Source: Escherichia coli O127:H6 str. E2348/69 (GTDB lineage Bacteria > Pseudomonadota > Gammaproteobacteria > Enterobacterales > Enterobacteriaceae). Taken from it: a DNA stretch of 64,000 nt. The position numbers were made by a program. Position 1 is the stretch's first letter, and each line of letters opens with the position of its first letter. Location: assembly GCF_000026545.1 (NCBI RefSeq), contig NC_011601.1, one strand, 5' to 3'. Positions 1 through 6,000 of the stretch are shown piece by piece.

Positions 1-3000
1 GTGATGTTGCTTGGAATTGCAGGGCATATAACTGATGGTTCTATAATACTAATTGATGAACCGGAAATAAGCTTGCATCCTCGATGGCAGGAAGAGTTTA
101 TCATTATGTTAACAAAAGCATTTTTAACTTACTCAGGTTGTCAATTCATAATTGCAACTCATTCACCACAAATAATATCCAATTTGCCGAATAAAGGTTG
201 TTATATAACATCTTTGTCGAAAAGTTATCTTTATAAAGCAAAATACTTTAGCAACCGGTCTGCAGACTATCAACTTGCGGAACTATTTGATGCCCCTGGC
301 ATTATGAATGAATACATTGCCAGATTAGCTTTCAATTTACTTTCAAAAGTTAAGACTGCTAAGTTAGTAACAGATGATAATTGGCGTGAATTAAAACAAC
401 TCCAGCTTCTCCTTGAAAACGTTAATAGTAATGACCCTATTAATGAACTCGTAAATTCCGTATCTCAGGTGTGTGAAATTTATGCCAAAAATTAAAAATC
501 CAATTAGATTCAGCGCAGAGTCATTAGATATTATTGAGAAAAAATTGTCTTCTCCAGATTTTAAGCATACCAACTGGGGAGATGATGATTTGCAAGTTCT
601 CCGTGCAGAAATTAGAAATCATTACAGAGAAGAACAAAAGCTAGAATGTGTATATTGTCATGAGCCTATTGGGGTAAGAGCTGCACAAGCTGCTCCTATA
701 GAGCATATTGTGCCAAAATCTCAATATCTATGTTTTATTTTTGAACCTAAGAATCTATGTGTAGTATGTCCTGACTGCAATGAATTCAAAGGTAAAAATG
801 AAGTGTTATTTGAACCCGTAATAAATGGGGGGCGGCGCAAAAACTATCCAACTGCATCTGCATCATTTCGCATCGTTCATCCACATATAGATGATTATGA
901 GATGCATATTATAAAAGCAAATCGTGTTTATGTGGACAAAACACCTAAAGGGCACTATACCATTGGAATATGTAAACTAAATAGATTTTTTCATTATTTT
1001 GGGATGTGTGATGAATTTGTTAATGATGCAAAAATTGCTGAGGCAAATGAAAATTTTTTCAAAAAAGGTAGTATTACTACTAATGAATTATTGGATGATG
1101 ACATTCATTTGATTTAACTATGAATTATTATATTGTAAAGTAATCAGGTAAGATATGTTAGACAGTGAGACTATTGCCTTACAGAATTCATTATTCTTAT
1201 GGATCGCCTTTCTGACTGATTTCATATTGGCGGGGTAACGGGAGTTAAGTAGAATGGCTGCGGGTGCTTGAGGCTATCTGTCTCAGGCATGAACACCAAA
1301 GGCAGATAGAGAAAAGCCCCAGTTAACATTACGCGTCCTGCAAGACGCTTAACATTAATCTGAGGCCAATTTCATGCTAGACACATGTAGGTTAGCCTCT
1401 TACGTGCCGGAAGGCAAGGAGATGTATGGGTCCACCACATATTGCAATTTTTATTCTCTTTTAAAATATATTCCACGGGCGTCATTAGTGCGAGCGCCTT
1501 GTGGGGTCTTTTGCTGTTATACAGCACCAGATATTCCGCCAGCTTCTGGTTAAATAGCGCCAGATCTTCAAAGAGTAAAATCTCATTAAATTCAATAAAC
1601 TGCTCTCTTAACGTCCGGTTAAAACGTTCACAGATAGCGTTCATTTTTGGCGTGTAGGGATAGGTCCAGAGGTGTTTGATAGCGGCTTCCTGCAGCGTTT
1701 TGTCGAAGTTTCCCAGGAACTCTTTTCCGTTATCTGTGATTATCTGGCTGATACCGACCGGGAACAACCGGGCTGCGCGGCTGAAGAAGTGATTGACGAT
1801 ATCACTGTTGAGTGACGGCACAGCCAGCGCCAGCGCGTAATTGCTGCATTCGTCGATCATGGTGATGACATAGCGACGCAGTTCGCCCATTCTGAGCTCA
1901 ATGGCGTCCATCCCAATGAGCTCACCTGTCTTTACCGGGCGGTAGTGCTTTGGCCTGCGGGGTTTGGCAGACCGCTTTTTGACAAGCAGTGCCTTCCCCC
2001 GCGATCCCAGACGCACAGGTATCATCCGCATTTTATCATGTGCGGCAGCGATCATTCTGCCGATGGTGGAAACACTCGGACAGGCCAGATAGCGCTGTTC
2101 GCACCAGGGCTTCAGGCGAACAAAAATCTGCTCTTTACCGAGGTTCGGCAGCTCTGTCCTGAGGCGTCGAATCTCTTTCAGCACATCGGGATGCCAGTGT
2201 TTTTTTCGTCGCACCAGAGGTGCCTTACTGTGCGGGATTAGCCCCTCAGGTCCTTCCTTGTTCAGTAACTGACGCCACCAGTAAAGCGTGCGGCAGGACA
2301 CGCCAAAGGCTTCAGAAGCTGCAGAAATACCGTGTTTATCCCAGAAGTGCAGAGCCTTCATTCTCATTGTTGCTATATCAGCCATCACTGAAAGCCTCAA
2401 CGCATAATCGGCCGTTTGGTAGTACTTAGGATAGCCAACCATCAGATGCTGCATTTGCATAGTGCAATCTCCCCTTACTTATCCGGAGGCAATTGCAATA
2501 TCTCTGTGAACTTACACAGGAGAAGCAGGCTATGAAGCAGCAAAAGGCGATGTTAATCGCCCTGATCGTCATCTGTTTAACCGTCATAGTGACGACACTG
2601 GTAACGAGGAAAGACCTCTGCGAGGTACGAATCCGAACCGGCCAGACGGAGGCCGCTGTCTTCACAGCTTACGAACCTGAGGAGTAAGAGACCCGGCGAG
2701 GGAGAAATCCCTCGCCACCTCTGATGTGGCAGGCATCCTCAACGCACCCGCACTTAACCCGCTTCGGCGGGTTTTTGTTTTTATTTTCAACGCGTTTGAA
2801 GTTCTGGACGGCGCCGGAATAGAATCAAAAATACTTAAGTAGCGCGCAGGGATAAGAGGGATGGTCCCTTAAAGGGGAGAGCTAATTATCCGGAAGGATT
2901 CTGATGATGAACATCGAAGAACTGCGTAAAATTTTTTGTGAAGATGGCCTCTATGCTGTGTGCGTTGAAAATGGAAATCTTGTTAGTCATTACCGCATTA

Positions 3001-6000
3001 TGTGTTTGCGAAAGAATGGGGCTGCGTTAATTAATTTTGTGGATGGTCGAGTGACAGACGGATTTATCTTGCGCGAAGGTGAGTTTGTCACTTCATTACA
3101 GGCACTGAAAGAGATCGGAATAAAAGCAGGCTTTTCAGCTTTTGCAGAAGAATAAACTCATCTACAATCTTGCGCGGGGCTGAACTCCCGCTGAGTAACA
3201 CCGTGCCACCGGAGAAAACCGATGGCACGCAACGTAAAATATTACAATTCTGATAATTCGCCCGTTCTTGCCTGCACGCACGAGCGGTATTCTCACGCAT
3301 TCAAGTCTGAATGGTTCCAACACCCTCCATGTACTGAAGAGCAGGCTGAATGGACAATTCAGTGTTACCGCAGGCGCGGATACGAGGTTAAGAAAGCCCT
3401 CAGCCTCGATTATCGTCACTGGATAATCTATGTCAGGCTCCCTTATTCCGAACGCTCACCGCGCCCATCCCGCACATACCAGCAACGGATCTGGAGGTAA
3501 CGTGCGGATATTACTTCGACCTGTTCTGGTACCGGAACTTGGGCTGGTGGTCCTTAGGCCGGGCCGTGAATCCATGCAAGTATTTCATAACCCTCGAGTG
3601 CTGGTGGAGCCTGAACCGAAAAGCATGCGCGGTCTGCCGTCCGGAGTCGTCCCTGCCGTTCGCCAGCCGCTGGCGGAGGATAAATCATTACTGCCATTTT
3701 TCAGCGATGAGCGGGTGATTCGTGCTGCTGGCGGCGCTGGGGCACTGTCTGACTGGCTGTTGCGTCATGTCAAATCCTGCCAGTGGCCTCATGGTGACTA
3801 TCATCACAGTGAAATCGTCATACATCGTTACGGTACCGGCGCGATGGTGTTGTGCTGGCACTGCGACAACCAGTTGCGTGACCAGACATCCGAATCACTC
3901 GGGCAACTTGCTCATCAAAACCTGTCAGCATGGATGATTGACGTCATACGCCATGCAGTGAATGGCACGCAGGAGCGGGAATTATCGCTGGCTGAATTGT
4001 GCTGCTGGGCTTCTGTAAATGATGTAGTGGATGCCATGACCGAAAATATGGCGCGTCGAATCCTGAAGCTTCCGGGTGAAAAAATCCGCTCAGTATACCG
4101 CGAGAGCGACATCGTACCGGGAGAGCAGACCGCCATCAGCATACTGAAGCAGCGCACAAAAAATATTGCGCCGTTGCCTCACGCCCACCAGCAACAGAAT
4201 CCACCACAGGAAAAGACGGTGGTCAGCATTGCCGTTGATCCGGAGTCACCGGCTCAGTATCTCCAGCGCCAGAAACCACAACGGGAAGAGATGCCTGTAT
4301 ACACGCGCTGGGTAAAAACGCAGAAATGCATGACGTGTGGCAATCAGGCAGATGATCCGCATCACATCATTGGTCATGGACTGGGAGGGATGGGAACAAA
4401 GGCTGATGATTTGTTTGTTATTCCGCTGTGCCGTAAATGCCATAGCGAACTACACGCCGGGGTAAAAGATTTTGAAGAAAAACACGGCAGCCAGCTGTTG
4501 TTGCTGATTCGTTTTTTAATGCACGCGAGAAATTCGGGTGTCCTGAAGTGGAAAGCATGAATGACTGAACGCATAGAATTTGTTTTGCCTTACCCGCCAA
4601 CGGTGAACACTTACTGGCGACGTCGTGGCAGCACATATTTTGTATCAAAAGCCGGTGAGCGTTATCGCCGTGATGTGGCGCTTATTGTTCGCCAGCAGCG
4701 GCTGAAATTAAACCTGTCCGGAAGGCTGGCGATAAAGATTATTGCAGAGCCACCGGATAAACGTCGTCGTGACCTGGACAATATCCTGAAAGCACCACTG
4801 GATGCGCTGACGCATGCCGGACTTCTCATAGACGACGAGCAGTTTGATGAAATCAATATTGTGCGCGGTCAGCGCGTTCCTGGGGGGCGGCTGGGCGTGA
4901 AGATTTACAAAATTGAGAGTGAGTGATCGTAAATATGATATATCCGGAAATTACAGGCAAAAGCGGCGAGCATTTACGTCTAAAAACGCTGGAAGCCGTC
5001 TGGATCCAGGGGAAATTACGGATGTGGGGGCGTTGGTCGTATATAGGTGGTGGCAAACCAGGAAATATGTTCAATCAGTTGCTGGCATCCAAAAAACTGA
5101 CAAAAACCGCGGTCAATGAAGCCCTGCGTAGAATCAGGGAGTCAGGGATTGATAAACCAGAGCTGGAAGCATTCTTGCGAGAGATGATCGCTGGCAGACA
5201 GAAGAGCTGGTTGTCTCACTGTACTGATGCAGAGGCGTTACGCATTGATGGGGTGATAAGTAAAGCGCTTGCACGTTATCCTGGATTGATTGATATCCTG
5301 CGGCAAAGGTACGAAGGGCGGGGGATGAGTAAACGCAAAATGGCTGAATTGTTGAATGAGGTTCACCCTGAGTGGTGCTATGCAACATGCCGCAATCGTA
5401 TAGATATGTGGCTGAGAATAGCTGAGTTTATTCTGTATCCACTGATGCGAGATGCATTTTCTTTTACTGACGCTTAGAATCTGGAGGGCGTTTGTTGTTG
5501 CACGAAGAGGATTTTTGGCTGGTAGTAAGGTTTGTGCAGTTTTAGAAAAAAAGCTTGTATTTTTAGCCATAAACTGTTTCAATCCAGCTACGCTTCGCAA
5601 AGCTGTACCGCGAGGCGAATAGCAGACATGGACACCTGAAAGAACCCGCTTTATGCGGGTTTTTTTTATGCCTGAAAAACGGCACAGAACATTAAACGCG
5701 CTGGTTGTTGTGAATACTGGTCTTTCAGCTTGCTGGCTTTTTCGACAAGAGGTATTGGTATGTCACGTTAACCGGAAAAGGGAAAAAGGCATGCTAAAAC
5801 AGCTGGATATGACCGAAACCGCCAGAGTGGTGTTTAATGAATTAAGCGTCACCGAACCGGCGACCGTCGGGGAAATTGCGCAGAATACTTACCTTTCACG
5901 CGAACGCTGCCAGTTAATACTGACTCAGCTTGTTATGGCGGGTCTGGCAGATTATCAGTTCGGTTGTTACAGACGCCTTCCGCAGTGAAGGCTTTTTAAT

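What the first reader, a model, noticed from the sequence alone, without database searches (positions are those of the whole stretch)
2904..3500. Two small uncharacterised ORFs with good ribosome-binding sites next to the hok/defence block
The 83-aa and ~92-aa ORFs sit between the hok terminator and the DUF968/rusA genes and match no family I recognise. Small proteins in this position of lambdoid prophages are often anti-defence or host-takeover factors.
Basis: inference. Interest (0 to 1): 0.3.

Follow-up and report, generated by a model that had tools for sequence, protein, structure and literature searches.

The report
Rem antirepressor and nin-region small gene
The first small gene is rem, an already characterised prophage antirepressor that switches off DicA-type repressors. 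The second is a real, very widespread phage gene of unknown function that sits in the recombination part of the nin region, so the pair is largely ordinary.

Summary
Both ORFs exist exactly as described, in a Qin/mEp460-like prophage of E. coli E2348/69.

**ORF1 (2904-3155, 83 aa) is rem.** It is 96% identical to K-12 Qin Rem. Ectopic expression of K-12 Rem derepresses the DicA-controlled dicB promoter 165-fold (Ragunathan 2023). A DicA-like repressor lies about 8.7 kb upstream in the same prophage. It occupies the position that the GfoA/GftA antirepressors hold in Gifsy phages. It is a regulator, not an anti-defence factor.

**ORF2 (3222-3500, 92 aa) is a genuine gene annotated only as "hypothetical".**
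- Codons 27-92 have dN/dS of about 0.14.
- It is found in 4528 of 5426 complete E. coli genomes.
- It is intact but unannotated in K-12 MG1655.
- It belongs to phrog_1212, a family of about 66 aa in enterobacterial temperate phages.
- In 11 of the 16 distinct phages inspected it lies directly upstream of a junction nuclease (DUF968/YdfU, NinG, YbcO or RusA); here the gap is one base.
- The predicted core is a confident beta-alpha-beta-beta fold. The E. coli-specific N-terminal extension is disordered and fast-evolving. The C-terminal tail is conserved and ends in an invariant Trp.
- No structural or family match gives a function.

My best guess, held at low confidence, is that ORF2 is an accessory of the nin-region recombination module.

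The parts
2532..2687 (+). hokD (Hok/Gef toxin, 51 aa). Context gene that precedes rem in nearly all related loci.
   Evidence: Pfam HOK_GEF E 6.8e-23. RefSeq annotates it as hokD. The order hok-rem-ORF2-DUF968 holds in the IMG/VR loci that reach far enough upstream.
2756..2783 (+). Intrinsic terminator ending the hok transcript (AACCCGCTTCGGCGGGTT followed by a T-run).
   Evidence: Terminator scan. The sequence is essentially invariant in 5 diverged loci.
2796..2825 (+). Promoter-like site upstream of rem (TTGAAG, 18-nt spacer, TAGAAT). Candidate rem promoter; activity not shown.
   Evidence: Consensus scan, 9 of 12 matches. The TAGAAT -10 is conserved in all 5 aligned variants, including Rac-442/2 where Rem is only 60% identical. 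No LexA box (CTGT-N8-ACAG, up to 1 mismatch) lies between 2520 and 5218.
2892..2898 (+). Shine-Dalgarno sequence GGAAGGA of rem.
   Evidence: Read from the sequence. K-12 rem with its native RBS is active (PMC10448788).
2904..3155 (+). rem: 83-aa antirepressor of DicA-type prophage repressors.
   Evidence: 96% identical to K-12 Rem. RefSeq 'protein Rem'. phrog_340 E 9.5e-24. Homologues carry the precomputed Pfam family PF27490. dN/dS 0.22. Function shown for K-12 Rem.
3211..3214 (+). Shine-Dalgarno sequence GGAG of ORF2.
   Evidence: Read from the sequence. The Met1 start is invariant in 21 aligned homologues.
3222..3299 (+). ORF2 codons 1-26: an N-terminal extension limited to the Escherichia clade, predicted disordered and evolving fast.
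   Evidence: dN/dS is 2.0 and 1.2 in two samples. It is absent from the 66-aa relatives, whose Met aligns with residue 27. pLDDT is low. The frame is kept open and the only indel is an in-frame 2-codon one.
3300..3446 (+). ORF2 codons 27-75: conserved beta-alpha-beta-beta core domain of the phrog_1212 family.
   Evidence: phrog_1212 E 2.8e-34 over residues 27-92. AlphaFold2 core pLDDT about 95. dN/dS 0.14. Conserved F32, Y49, D63, L73, P74.
3447..3500 (+). ORF2 codons 76-92 plus stop: conserved basic tail (PRPSRTYQQRIWR) with an invariant penultimate Trp. The W91-R92 codons (TGGAGG) also supply the Shine-Dalgarno sequence for the next gene.
   Evidence: W91 is invariant across 36 diverse family members. 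dN/dS 0.14. pLDDT is low, which suggests a flexible tail. The junction ...TGGAGGTAACGTG is fixed in 83 of 88 loci.
3502..4560 (+). DUF968/YdfU-family gene (352 aa, C-terminal His-Me/HNH finger), starting 1 nt after the ORF2 stop codon.
   Evidence: Pfam DUF968 E 1.8e-62 and HNHc_6 E 6.5e-7. phrog_96 'HNH endonuclease'. RefSeq start at GTG 3502. DUF968 is classed in His-Me finger group 7 together with YbcO (PMC5714182). DUF968 proteins of Gram-positive phages are described as an Orf-like domain fused to HNH (PMC4118853).
4561..4926 (+). rusA Holliday-junction resolvase, the next gene of the same module.
   Evidence: RefSeq annotation. It is conserved downstream in many, though not all, of the related loci.

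Best explanation
The two ORFs are unrelated genes that happen to be neighbours in the nin-like region of a Qin/mEp460-type lambdoid prophage. ORF1 is rem. Its 83-aa product is an antirepressor that inactivates the short, non-cleavable DicA-type repressor, which derepresses the early operons (dicB/dicF side and dicC side). The activity is shown for the 96%-identical K-12 protein. Direct binding to the repressor is inferred by analogy with Gifsy GfoA/GftA. ORF2 is a translated member of a small-protein family (phrog_1212, typically 66 aa) that resides in the ninR recombination module of enterobacterial temperate phages. Here it is translationally coupled to the DUF968/YdfU His-Me finger nuclease. 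I infer that it is an accessory factor of that module: the folded beta-alpha-beta-beta core presents a flexible, basic, Trp-terminated tail that contacts DNA or a partner protein such as the nuclease or a host replication or recombination protein. In Escherichia the family acquired a disordered N-terminal extension of about 26 aa that evolves almost neutrally.
For: Rem: 96% identity to K-12 Rem and the RefSeq name. K-12 rem raises dicBp-lacZ 165-fold and causes DicB/DicF-dependent filamentation (PMC10448788). A 135-aa DicA-like repressor with DicC, ydfABC and dicB lies about 8.7 kb upstream in the same prophage. All four rem-carrying elements whose immunity region I retrieved and compared (K-12 Qin, E2348/69, PPompW, Rac-442/2) encode a 135-aa DicA-type repressor, and tblastn shows the same for mEp460_ev081, HannyBb and PhiR42_1. 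rem is the positional equivalent of the Gifsy antirepressors: terminator, dinI, gftA/gfoA, DUF1367, the 66-aa gene, NinG, Q in Gifsy-1 and Gifsy-2, and similarly in mEp237 and SEN34. ORF2: purifying selection in its own frame only. 73 relatives were found in a search of 1.84 billion representative proteins. Phage relatives come from Salmonella, Klebsiella, Citrobacter, Cronobacter, Hafnia, Erwinia, Edwardsiella, Pantoea and Yersinia phages. The core fold is confident. In 16 distinct phages it always lies among the early recombination genes, and in the 14 lambdoid ones between the replication genes and Q. Its next gene is DUF968, NinG, YbcO or RusA in 11 of those 16, and DUF968 follows at a fixed 1-nt spacing in all 88 E. 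coli-type loci where both genes could be scored. Orf-like genes (DUF1367, YbcN) or RdgC often lie just upstream. ORF2 occurs without rem and rem without ORF2, so they are separate modules.
Confidence: 0.6

Rival explanations
1. ORF2 is a host-directed factor (host takeover or anti-defence). Its disordered C-terminal tail would be a short linear motif that docks on a conserved host protein. One candidate reading is that ...Q-Q-R-I-W-R resembles a C-terminal beta-sliding-clamp-binding motif (Q-x-x-hydrophobic-aromatic). The fast-evolving N-terminal extension would reflect an arms race.
For: The tail is conserved across genera although the neighbouring phage genes change, which fits a host target. 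The tail has low pLDDT next to a confident core. N-terminal dN/dS is 1.2-2.0. The gene lies next to a cargo hotspot that carries Septu here. The resemblance to a clamp-binding motif is my own reading of the alignment, not a test.
Against: There are no PADLOC or other family hits, and no anti-defence library was available to search. The first Gln of the supposed motif is present in only about two thirds of the members listed. The N-terminal extension is absent from most of the family, and its dN/dS near 1 fits relaxed constraint as well as it fits positive selection. The constant company of recombination genes points elsewhere.
Confidence: 0.15
2. ORF2 is a dedicated inhibitor or chaperone of the downstream His-Me finger nuclease. 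It is made first and in stoichiometric amounts through translational coupling, and it keeps YdfU, NinG or YbcO inactive or correctly targeted.
For: It lies immediately upstream of DUF968, NinG or YbcO, with gaps of -4 to +2 nt, in E. coli prophages, Gifsy-1 and -2, SPN3UB, SEN34, GF-2, mEp237 and phiES15; in Klebsiella ST846-OXA48phi9.2 YbcO is also the next gene, but there the unannotated homologue overlaps the deposited YbcO CDS. The Shine-Dalgarno sequence of DUF968 is embedded in ORF2's last two codons.
Against: The same conserved protein would have to recognise three different nuclease families. In PHB10 and Chris1 the next gene is RusA. In PY54 and N15-like phages, EhrS_59, MII_001, Pocitis76 and PA-1 it is not a nuclease. 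There is no resemblance to known nuclease immunity proteins.
Confidence: 0.12
3. ORF2 has no protein function of its own. It is a leader ORF kept only to deliver ribosomes to the poorly initiating GTG start of DUF968.
For: A 1-nt gap, a GTG start and a Shine-Dalgarno sequence inside ORF2. The first 26 codons evolve near neutrality.
Against: Codons 27-92 have dN/dS of 0.14 with pS of 0.27-0.39. The amino-acid sequence is conserved at 30-47% identity across genera, with invariant Tyr and Trp. The predicted fold is confident. The family persists in front of unrelated downstream genes.
Confidence: 0.05
4. Rem in this prophage does not act on the resident repressor. It is either a trans-acting antirepressor aimed at other DicA-type prophages, or it has a different role, as hinted by the deposited label 'toxin to Rem' on ORF2 homologues, which implies a toxin-antitoxin pair.
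For: Rem is 96% identical between K-12, E2348/69 and PhiR42_1, while their DicA-type repressors are only 55-56% identical. Gifsy antirepressors are known to cross-react between heteroimmune phages, and FsoA has no role in its own phage (PMC3121763). Three phage records label ORF2 'toxin to Rem'.
Against: The E2348/69 repressor is 96% identical to that of the functional phages mEp460_ev081 and HannyBb, which carry a 100%-identical Rem. The pair therefore travels together in live phages. Rem toxicity in K-12 is fully explained by DicB and DicF. rem and ORF2 occur independently, and those records with the 'toxin to Rem' label lack rem itself. No publication was found to support the label.
Confidence: 0.08

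Closest known systems
Rem of E. coli K-12 cryptic prophage Qin (b1561), antirepressor of DicA (Ragunathan et al., J Bacteriol 2023, PMC10448788)
   Same: 83 aa and 96% identical. Same neighbours: hokD upstream and a YdfU-family gene downstream. The same type of immunity module (DicA-like, DicC, ydfABC, dicB) is in the same prophage.
   Different: The resident repressor is only 55% identical to K-12 DicA; it is the mEp460 type (96%). No experiment exists on this allele or pairing. In K-12, relBE lies upstream of hokD; here it is IS481 and a Septu system.
Gifsy/Fels small antirepressors GfoA, GfhA, GftA and FsoA (Lemire et al., PLoS Genet 2011, PMC3121763)
   Same: Small proteins (about 73-82 aa) that inactivate short, non-cleavable DicA/GfoR-type repressors. 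They are encoded outside the immunity region, after a terminator and just upstream of the ninR recombination genes. Rem was originally found by iterated BLAST from GfoA and FsoA.
   Different: Sequence similarity is marginal in my tests (hhalign probability 43% and 16%). The Gifsy genes follow a LexA box and dinI, while rem follows hok and has no LexA box. GfoA-type relatives do not carry the Pfam family (PF27490) assigned to Rem homologues.
phrog_1212, including STM1021.1n (Gifsy-2), STM2620.1n (Gifsy-1), mEp237 gp51, SPN3UB gp61, phiES15 gp17, PY54 ORF47 and N15 Orf QD1
   Same: ORF2 residues 27-92 match the whole 66-position profile (E 2.8e-34). Y49 and W91 are invariant, F32, D63, L73 and P74 are nearly so, and the basic tail is shared. 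Same genomic neighbourhood. The only significant fold hit is N15 Orf QD1 (E 7e-4).
   Different: ORF2 carries a 24-26-aa N-terminal extension limited to the Escherichia clade and has lost the ancestral start codon. The whole family has no known function.
Lambda NinF and NinE (small ninR proteins next to ninG or ybcO)
   Same: Positional analogy. NinF lies directly upstream of ninG in lambda and NinE lies between ybcN and ybcO in DLP12 (gene orders recalled from memory, not tested here). ORF2 relatives sit in front of NinG in the Gifsy phages and between YbcN and YbcO in phiES15. All are small and have unknown roles.
   Different: No sequence relationship: ORF2 and its relatives hit no Pfam family, so they are not in the NinE or NinF families. 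Some phages carry NinF as well as an ORF2 relative.

Membership tests
Rem (K-12 Qin Rem; phrog_340; Pfam PF27490) | Full-length sequence similarity to K-12 Rem | tested here: met
   80 of 83 residues identical, no gaps. phrog_340 E 9.5e-24. All 120 listed homologues carry the precomputed PF27490. The local Pfam copy lacks that model, so hmmscan found nothing.
Rem (K-12 Qin Rem; phrog_340; Pfam PF27490) | Encoded in a prophage that uses a short (135-aa) DicA-type repressor | tested here: met
   A 135-aa HTH repressor, 55-56% identical to DicA, with DicC, ydfABC and dicB in the same E2348/69 prophage. The same holds in PPompW, Rac-442/2, mEp460_ev081, HannyBb and PhiR42_1. Absence of a cleavage domain was not scanned directly; DicA's lack of a cleavage site is taken from PMC10448788.
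Rem (K-12 Qin Rem; phrog_340; Pfam PF27490) | Relieves DicA-mediated repression when expressed | not testable with these tools
   Shown only for the K-12 allele (PMC10448788).
GfoA/GftA/FsoA-type small antirepressors | Detectable sequence homology | tested here: inconclusive
   Profile-profile comparison: probability 43%, E 2.5e-4 over 37 columns, and probability 16%, E 1.6e-3 over 59 collinear columns with a larger alignment. tblastn with Rem does not reach the Gifsy phages.
GfoA/GftA/FsoA-type small antirepressors | Gene lies outside the immunity region, after a terminator, at the head of the ninR-like gene block | tested here: met
   Here: terminator 2756-2773, rem, ORF2, nuclease, rusA, Q. 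Gifsy-1 and -2, mEp237 and SEN34: dinI, small antirepressor-sized gene, DUF1367, ORF2 relative, nuclease, Q.
GfoA/GftA/FsoA-type small antirepressors | Direct LexA control (LexA box at the promoter). This holds for the Gifsy members but not for FsoA. | tested here: not met
   No CTGT-N8-ACAG with up to 1 mismatch between 2520 and 5218. The nearest match, 2504-2519, lies in front of hok and is separated from rem by the hok terminator.
GfoA/GftA/FsoA-type small antirepressors | Binds the repressor and releases it from DNA | not testable with these tools
   Shown for GfoA and GftA. Not shown for Rem: 'unknown mechanism'.
phrog_1212 (ORF2) | Match to the full family profile | tested here: met
   E 2.8e-34, residues 27-92 against profile positions 1-66 of 66. 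73 relatives in the exhaustive search, mostly 66 aa and aligning from their residue 2.
Lambda Nin proteins (NinE PF05322, NinF PF05810, others) | Match to a Pfam Nin family | tested here: not met
   No Pfam hit at E up to 1 for ORF2 or for 10 diverse relatives. NinF co-occurs as a separate gene in EhrS_59, MII_001 and PA-1.
Known defence-system components (PADLOC) | Match to a PADLOC model | tested here: not met
   No hits for Rem, ORF2 or DUF968. The upstream PtuA/PtuB pair matches strongly. No anti-defence library was available.
Toxin-antitoxin pair ('toxin to Rem' label in three phage records) | Obligate co-occurrence of the two genes | tested here: not met
   ORF2 occurs without rem (vB_EcoS-689R5, L103-L106) and rem without ORF2 (Rac-442/2). 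ORF2 is in 4528 genomes and rem in 3018.

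The most novel reading that the evidence does not exclude
ORF2 represents an overlooked, near-universal component of the ninR recombination module of enterobacterial temperate phages. 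It is present in 83% of complete E. coli genomes and is missing from the K-12 MG1655 annotation. In this reading its conserved Trp-terminated tail recruits a host replication or recombination hub (for example the beta clamp or SSB), or the adjacent His-Me nuclease, to branched DNA, which would make it a new class of phage recombination or host-interface adaptor.
Probability: 0.2. Interest if true: 0.5.

Novelty: already known. Interest (0 to 1): 0.2.

Why it matters
For rem, nothing new is at stake. This window holds another copy of a characterised antirepressor.

One useful side point is that essentially the same Rem (96-100% identity) travels with DicA-type repressors that are only 55-56% identical. 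This predicts Gifsy-like cross-talk between heteroimmune Qin/mEp460-type prophages in E. coli, including pathogens that carry dicB/dicF and Stx-phage relatives.

For ORF2, the value lies in annotation and as a lead.
- A gene under clear purifying selection, present in most E. coli genomes, is absent from the reference K-12 annotation.
- It belongs to a cross-genus phage family with no known function, embedded among recombination genes that are themselves only partly understood (NinG/Rap, YbcO, YdfU, Orf-like proteins).
- Finding its function would complete the parts list of the lambdoid ninR module.

Tried and rejected
- **Family libraries:** Pfam, NCBIfam and PADLOC scans of both ORFs found nothing usable. 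The only NCBIfam line, SocB toxin for Rem at E 0.035 and 13 bits against a cut-off of 210, is noise.
- **PDB by sequence:** nothing below E 0.29 for either family.
- **Overlapping DUF968 start:** the DUF968 frame is open for 25 codons upstream of its GTG in 87 of 88 loci, starting at ATG 3430. I rejected it as coding because that frame has dN/dS of about 1.6 while the ORF2 frame has 0.14.
- **Internal ORF2 start:** no ATG, GTG or TTG lies in frame near codon 27.
- **LexA control of rem:** no box found.
- **Structured rem leader:** the fold z-score is -0.74, which is not significant.
- **Rfam isrK hit on the hok 3' end:** 25.7 bits against a gathering score of 50. Only two generic hairpins match, so I treat it as chance.
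- **Context search with the 66-aa family alignment:** The search for related loci failed because no stretch was conserved enough. I replaced it with tblastn against phage records.
- **Literature searches:** searches for 'toxin to Rem' and for the K-12 coordinates of ORF2 returned nothing relevant.

Full report
**Where the window comes from.** The region 2450-4600 is 100% identical to the E. coli E2348/69 chromosome (NZ_CP059840.2). Large parts of it recur in 5007 of 5426 complete E. coli genomes. It lies in a lambdoid prophage inserted next to potC. The RefSeq annotation, transferred to window coordinates, is:
- PtuA-like ATPase, ending at 495
- HNH protein, 482-1117
- IS481 transposase, 1372-2460, minus strand
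- hokD, 2532-2687
- rem, 2904-3155
- hypothetical protein, 3222-3500
- DUF968 protein, 3502-4560
- rusA, 4561-4926
- DUF1133 protein, 4935-5477, at the position of the antiterminator Q gene

- Both ORFs are present with the stated lengths.
- Their Shine-Dalgarno sequences are well spaced: GGAAGGA 5 nt before the rem ATG, and GGAG 7 nt before the ORF2 ATG.
- An intrinsic terminator closes the hok transcript at 2756-2773.
- Both ORFs evolve as protein-coding genes. In 80 IMG/VR loci plus phage and genome loci, pooled dN/dS is 0.22 for rem and 0.19-0.25 for ORF2.
- rem is found in 3018 and ORF2 in 4528 of 5426 complete genomes, with up to 8 ORF2 copies per genome.

**ORF1 is rem, a known antirepressor.**
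- The protein is 96% identical to K-12 Qin Rem. It matches phrog_340, and its homologues carry a recent Pfam family, PF27490, which the local Pfam copy lacks.
- Ragunathan et al. (J Bacteriol 2023, PMC10448788) found Rem by iterated BLAST from the Gifsy-1 and Fels-1 antirepressors GfoA and FsoA. Ectopic rem raised dicBp-lacZ 165-fold, also when expressed with its native RBS. The resulting filamentation depended on Qin and on DicB or DicF. The inducing signal is unknown. A later preprint still calls the mechanism unknown.
- The E2348/69 prophage carries the matching immunity module about 8.7 kb upstream of rem, outside the window: a 135-aa DicA-like repressor, DicC, a YdaT-family protein, ydfA/B/C and dicB.
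- That repressor is only 55-56% identical to K-12 DicA. It is 96% identical to the repressor of the plaque-forming phages mEp460_ev081 and HannyBb, whose Rem is 100% identical to this one.
- PhiR42_1 pairs a 96%-identical Rem with yet another repressor that is 56% identical. So almost the same Rem travels with heteroimmune DicA-type repressors. This recalls the cross-reactivity of Gifsy antirepressors (PMC3121763) and suggests, by inference, that Rem contacts the more conserved C-terminal half of these repressors.

**Comparison of rem with the Gifsy-type antirepressors.**
- Position: in Gifsy-1 and Gifsy-2 the order is terminator, LexA box, dinI, antirepressor, DUF1367 (IrsA), a 66-aa gene, NinG, Q. 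mEp237, SEN34, SPN3UB and Klebsiella phages have dinI, a gene of 77-82 aa, DUF1367, the 66-aa gene, a nuclease and Q. Phage Rac-442/2 has hok, rem, irsA, ybcO, Q. So rem sits where those antirepressors sit, with hok in place of dinI.
- Sequence: relatedness is marginal in my hands (hhalign probability 43% and 16%), and GfoA-type relatives carry no PF27490.
- Regulation: no LexA box precedes rem. A promoter-like site (TTGAAG, 18-nt spacer, TAGAAT, at 2796-2825) has a -10 element conserved even in the 60%-identical Rac-442/2 variant. The leader shows no significant fold.

**ORF2 is a real gene of a wider, uncharacterised family.**
- It has no hits in Pfam, NCBIfam or PADLOC. It matches phrog_1212 over residues 27-92.
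- The word-based search found only Escherichia and Shigella "hypothetical proteins".
- The exhaustive profile search found 73 relatives. Most are 66 aa and align from their residue 2 to ORF2 residue 28. They are 26-47% identical to ORF2. Y49 and W91 are invariant, F32, D63, L73 and P74 are nearly so, and a basic tail of the form ...PRPxRxYQQRxW[RG] is conserved.
- Selection differs by segment. In the first sample, codons 27-66 and 67-92 have dN/dS of 0.09 and 0.11. In the larger sample both are 0.14, while the other two frames give 1.6-2.7 there. Codons 1-26 give 2.0 and 1.2 in the two samples.
- There is no in-frame start codon near codon 27. Met1 and its Shine-Dalgarno sequence are conserved, and the only indel is an in-frame two-codon one.
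- So the Escherichia clade lost the ancestral start and acquired an N-terminal extension of 24-26 aa that is translated but hardly constrained.
- AlphaFold2 with the deeper alignment gives a core with pLDDT of about 95 (beta 28-33, alpha 39-52, beta 56-60, beta 67-75). Both the N-terminal extension and the C-terminal tail are flexible.
- Fold and sequence searches against the PDB are uninformative. The only significant structural hit is a homologue, N15 Orf QD1.

**Genomic company of ORF2.**
- In all 88 E. coli-type loci where both genes could be scored, including alleles down to 63-68% identity that lack rem, ORF2 is followed after one base by the GTG start of a DUF968/YdfU gene. The junction is ...TGG AGG TAA C GTG, so the last two ORF2 codons form the Shine-Dalgarno sequence.
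- In other genera the 66-aa relative sits directly in front of one of the following:
  - NinG: Gifsy-1 and -2, SPN3UB, SEN34, GF-2
  - YbcO/DUF1364: mEp237, phiES15, Klebsiella ST846-OXA48phi9.2
  - RusA: PHB10, Chris1
  - other small nin genes followed by NinF and/or NinG: MII_001, Pocitis76, PA-1
  - a Dcm methylase: EhrS_59
  - a 175-aa unknown protein after RdgC: PY54 and N15-like plasmid prophages

- Upstream genes are often Orf-like mediators (DUF1367, YbcN) or RdgC.
- DUF968 and YbcO form group 7 of the His-Me finger superfamily and NinG forms group 24. All are proposed recombination nucleases (PMC5714182). DUF968 proteins of Gram-positive phages have been described as an Orf-like domain fused to HNH (PMC4118853).
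- ORF2 is therefore a resident of the ninR recombination block. rem and ORF2 occur independently of each other, so the two ORFs of the finding are not a functional pair.

**Mechanism.**
- For Rem: derepression of DicA-controlled promoters is shown for the K-12 allele. Direct binding to the repressor, and action on this prophage's repressor, are inferred.
- For ORF2: only translation and purifying selection are supported. Its role as an accessory of the recombination and junction-nuclease module, acting through its Trp-terminated basic tail, is an inference from gene neighbourhood and anatomy, held at roughly 0.3.
- The rivals for ORF2 (a host-directed factor, a nuclease inhibitor, a pure coupling leader) are set out separately. 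The leader-only idea is contradicted by amino-acid conservation across genera.
- An anti-defence role has no positive support.

**Verdict.** The finding is real but largely ordinary. One ORF is an already characterised gene. The other is a catalogued hypothetical protein of a widespread phage family. The points worth keeping are:
- ORF2 is intact but unannotated in K-12 MG1655.
- ORF2 consistently lies in the nin recombination module.
- Nearly identical Rem proteins are paired with heteroimmune DicA-type repressors.

Noticed in passing
window 1-1117 (PtuA C-terminal part 1-495; PtuB 482-1117); full genes in L001 2673-4668: The ATPase and HNH pair upstream is a Septu defence system (PADLOC PtuA E 1.9e-165, PtuB E 1.1e-83). 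Other prophages carry different cargo at this position between the replication genes and hok, for example a DUF4145 protein in strain 13KWH46 and Paa/AdfO in PPompW. It looks like a cargo hotspot.
   Followed up: partly
window 1372-2519: An IS481-family element lies immediately upstream of hokD. Homology to IS-free relatives begins only at about 2518-2520, some 13 nt before the hok ATG. If so, this hok copy may have lost its native leader, mok and sok region. A perfect CTGT-N8-ACAG palindrome (CTGTGAACTTACACAG) sits at 2504-2519.
   Followed up: no
L003 1807-2085 (-), which is NC_000913.3 complement 1644306-1644584: The ORF2 orthologue is intact in K-12 MG1655 (92 aa, 88% identical) between rem and ydfU, but the RefSeq record has no feature there. 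It is also unannotated in phages mEp460_ev081, Evi, vB_EcoM-606R7, Klebsiella ST846-OXA48phi9.2 and Pantoea PA-1.
   Followed up: partly
window 3430-3501: The DUF968 reading frame is open for 25 codons upstream of its annotated GTG start in 87 of 88 loci (ATG at 3430 here), overlapping the end of ORF2. Substitution patterns show this stretch is not constrained in that frame (dN/dS about 1.6).
   Followed up: yes
window 3222-3299: The first 26 codons of ORF2 evolve at dN/dS of 1.2-2.0, while the rest of the gene is at about 0.14. The extension is absent from the 66-aa relatives in other genera. I could not tell relaxed constraint from diversifying selection.
   Followed up: partly
rem at window 2904-3155; repressor in L004 4531-4938 (outside the window): Rem is 96-100% identical across K-12 Qin, E2348/69, mEp460_ev081, HannyBb and PhiR42_1. 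Their DicA-type repressors fall into at least three types that are only 55-56% identical. This suggests antirepressor cross-talk between heteroimmune prophages.
   Followed up: partly
window 2696-2777: A sub-threshold Rfam match of the hok 3' end and terminator to the Gifsy-1 sRNA IsrK (25.7 bits against a gathering score of 50, E 0.001-0.004). The alignment rests on two generic hairpins, so it is probably chance.
   Followed up: partly
L005 3518-3796 and phage records ON470583.1, ON470612.1, ON470619.1: ORF2 homologues in three deposited phage genomes carry the product name 'toxin to Rem', although those genomes have no rem gene next to them. I found no published basis for the label.
   Followed up: partly
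window about 7238-7313 and 7411-7487: RefSeq annotates tRNA-Ile and tRNA-Arg genes downstream of the prophage DNA methyltransferase (6139-7188). An IraM anti-adapter gene lies further on.
   Followed up: no
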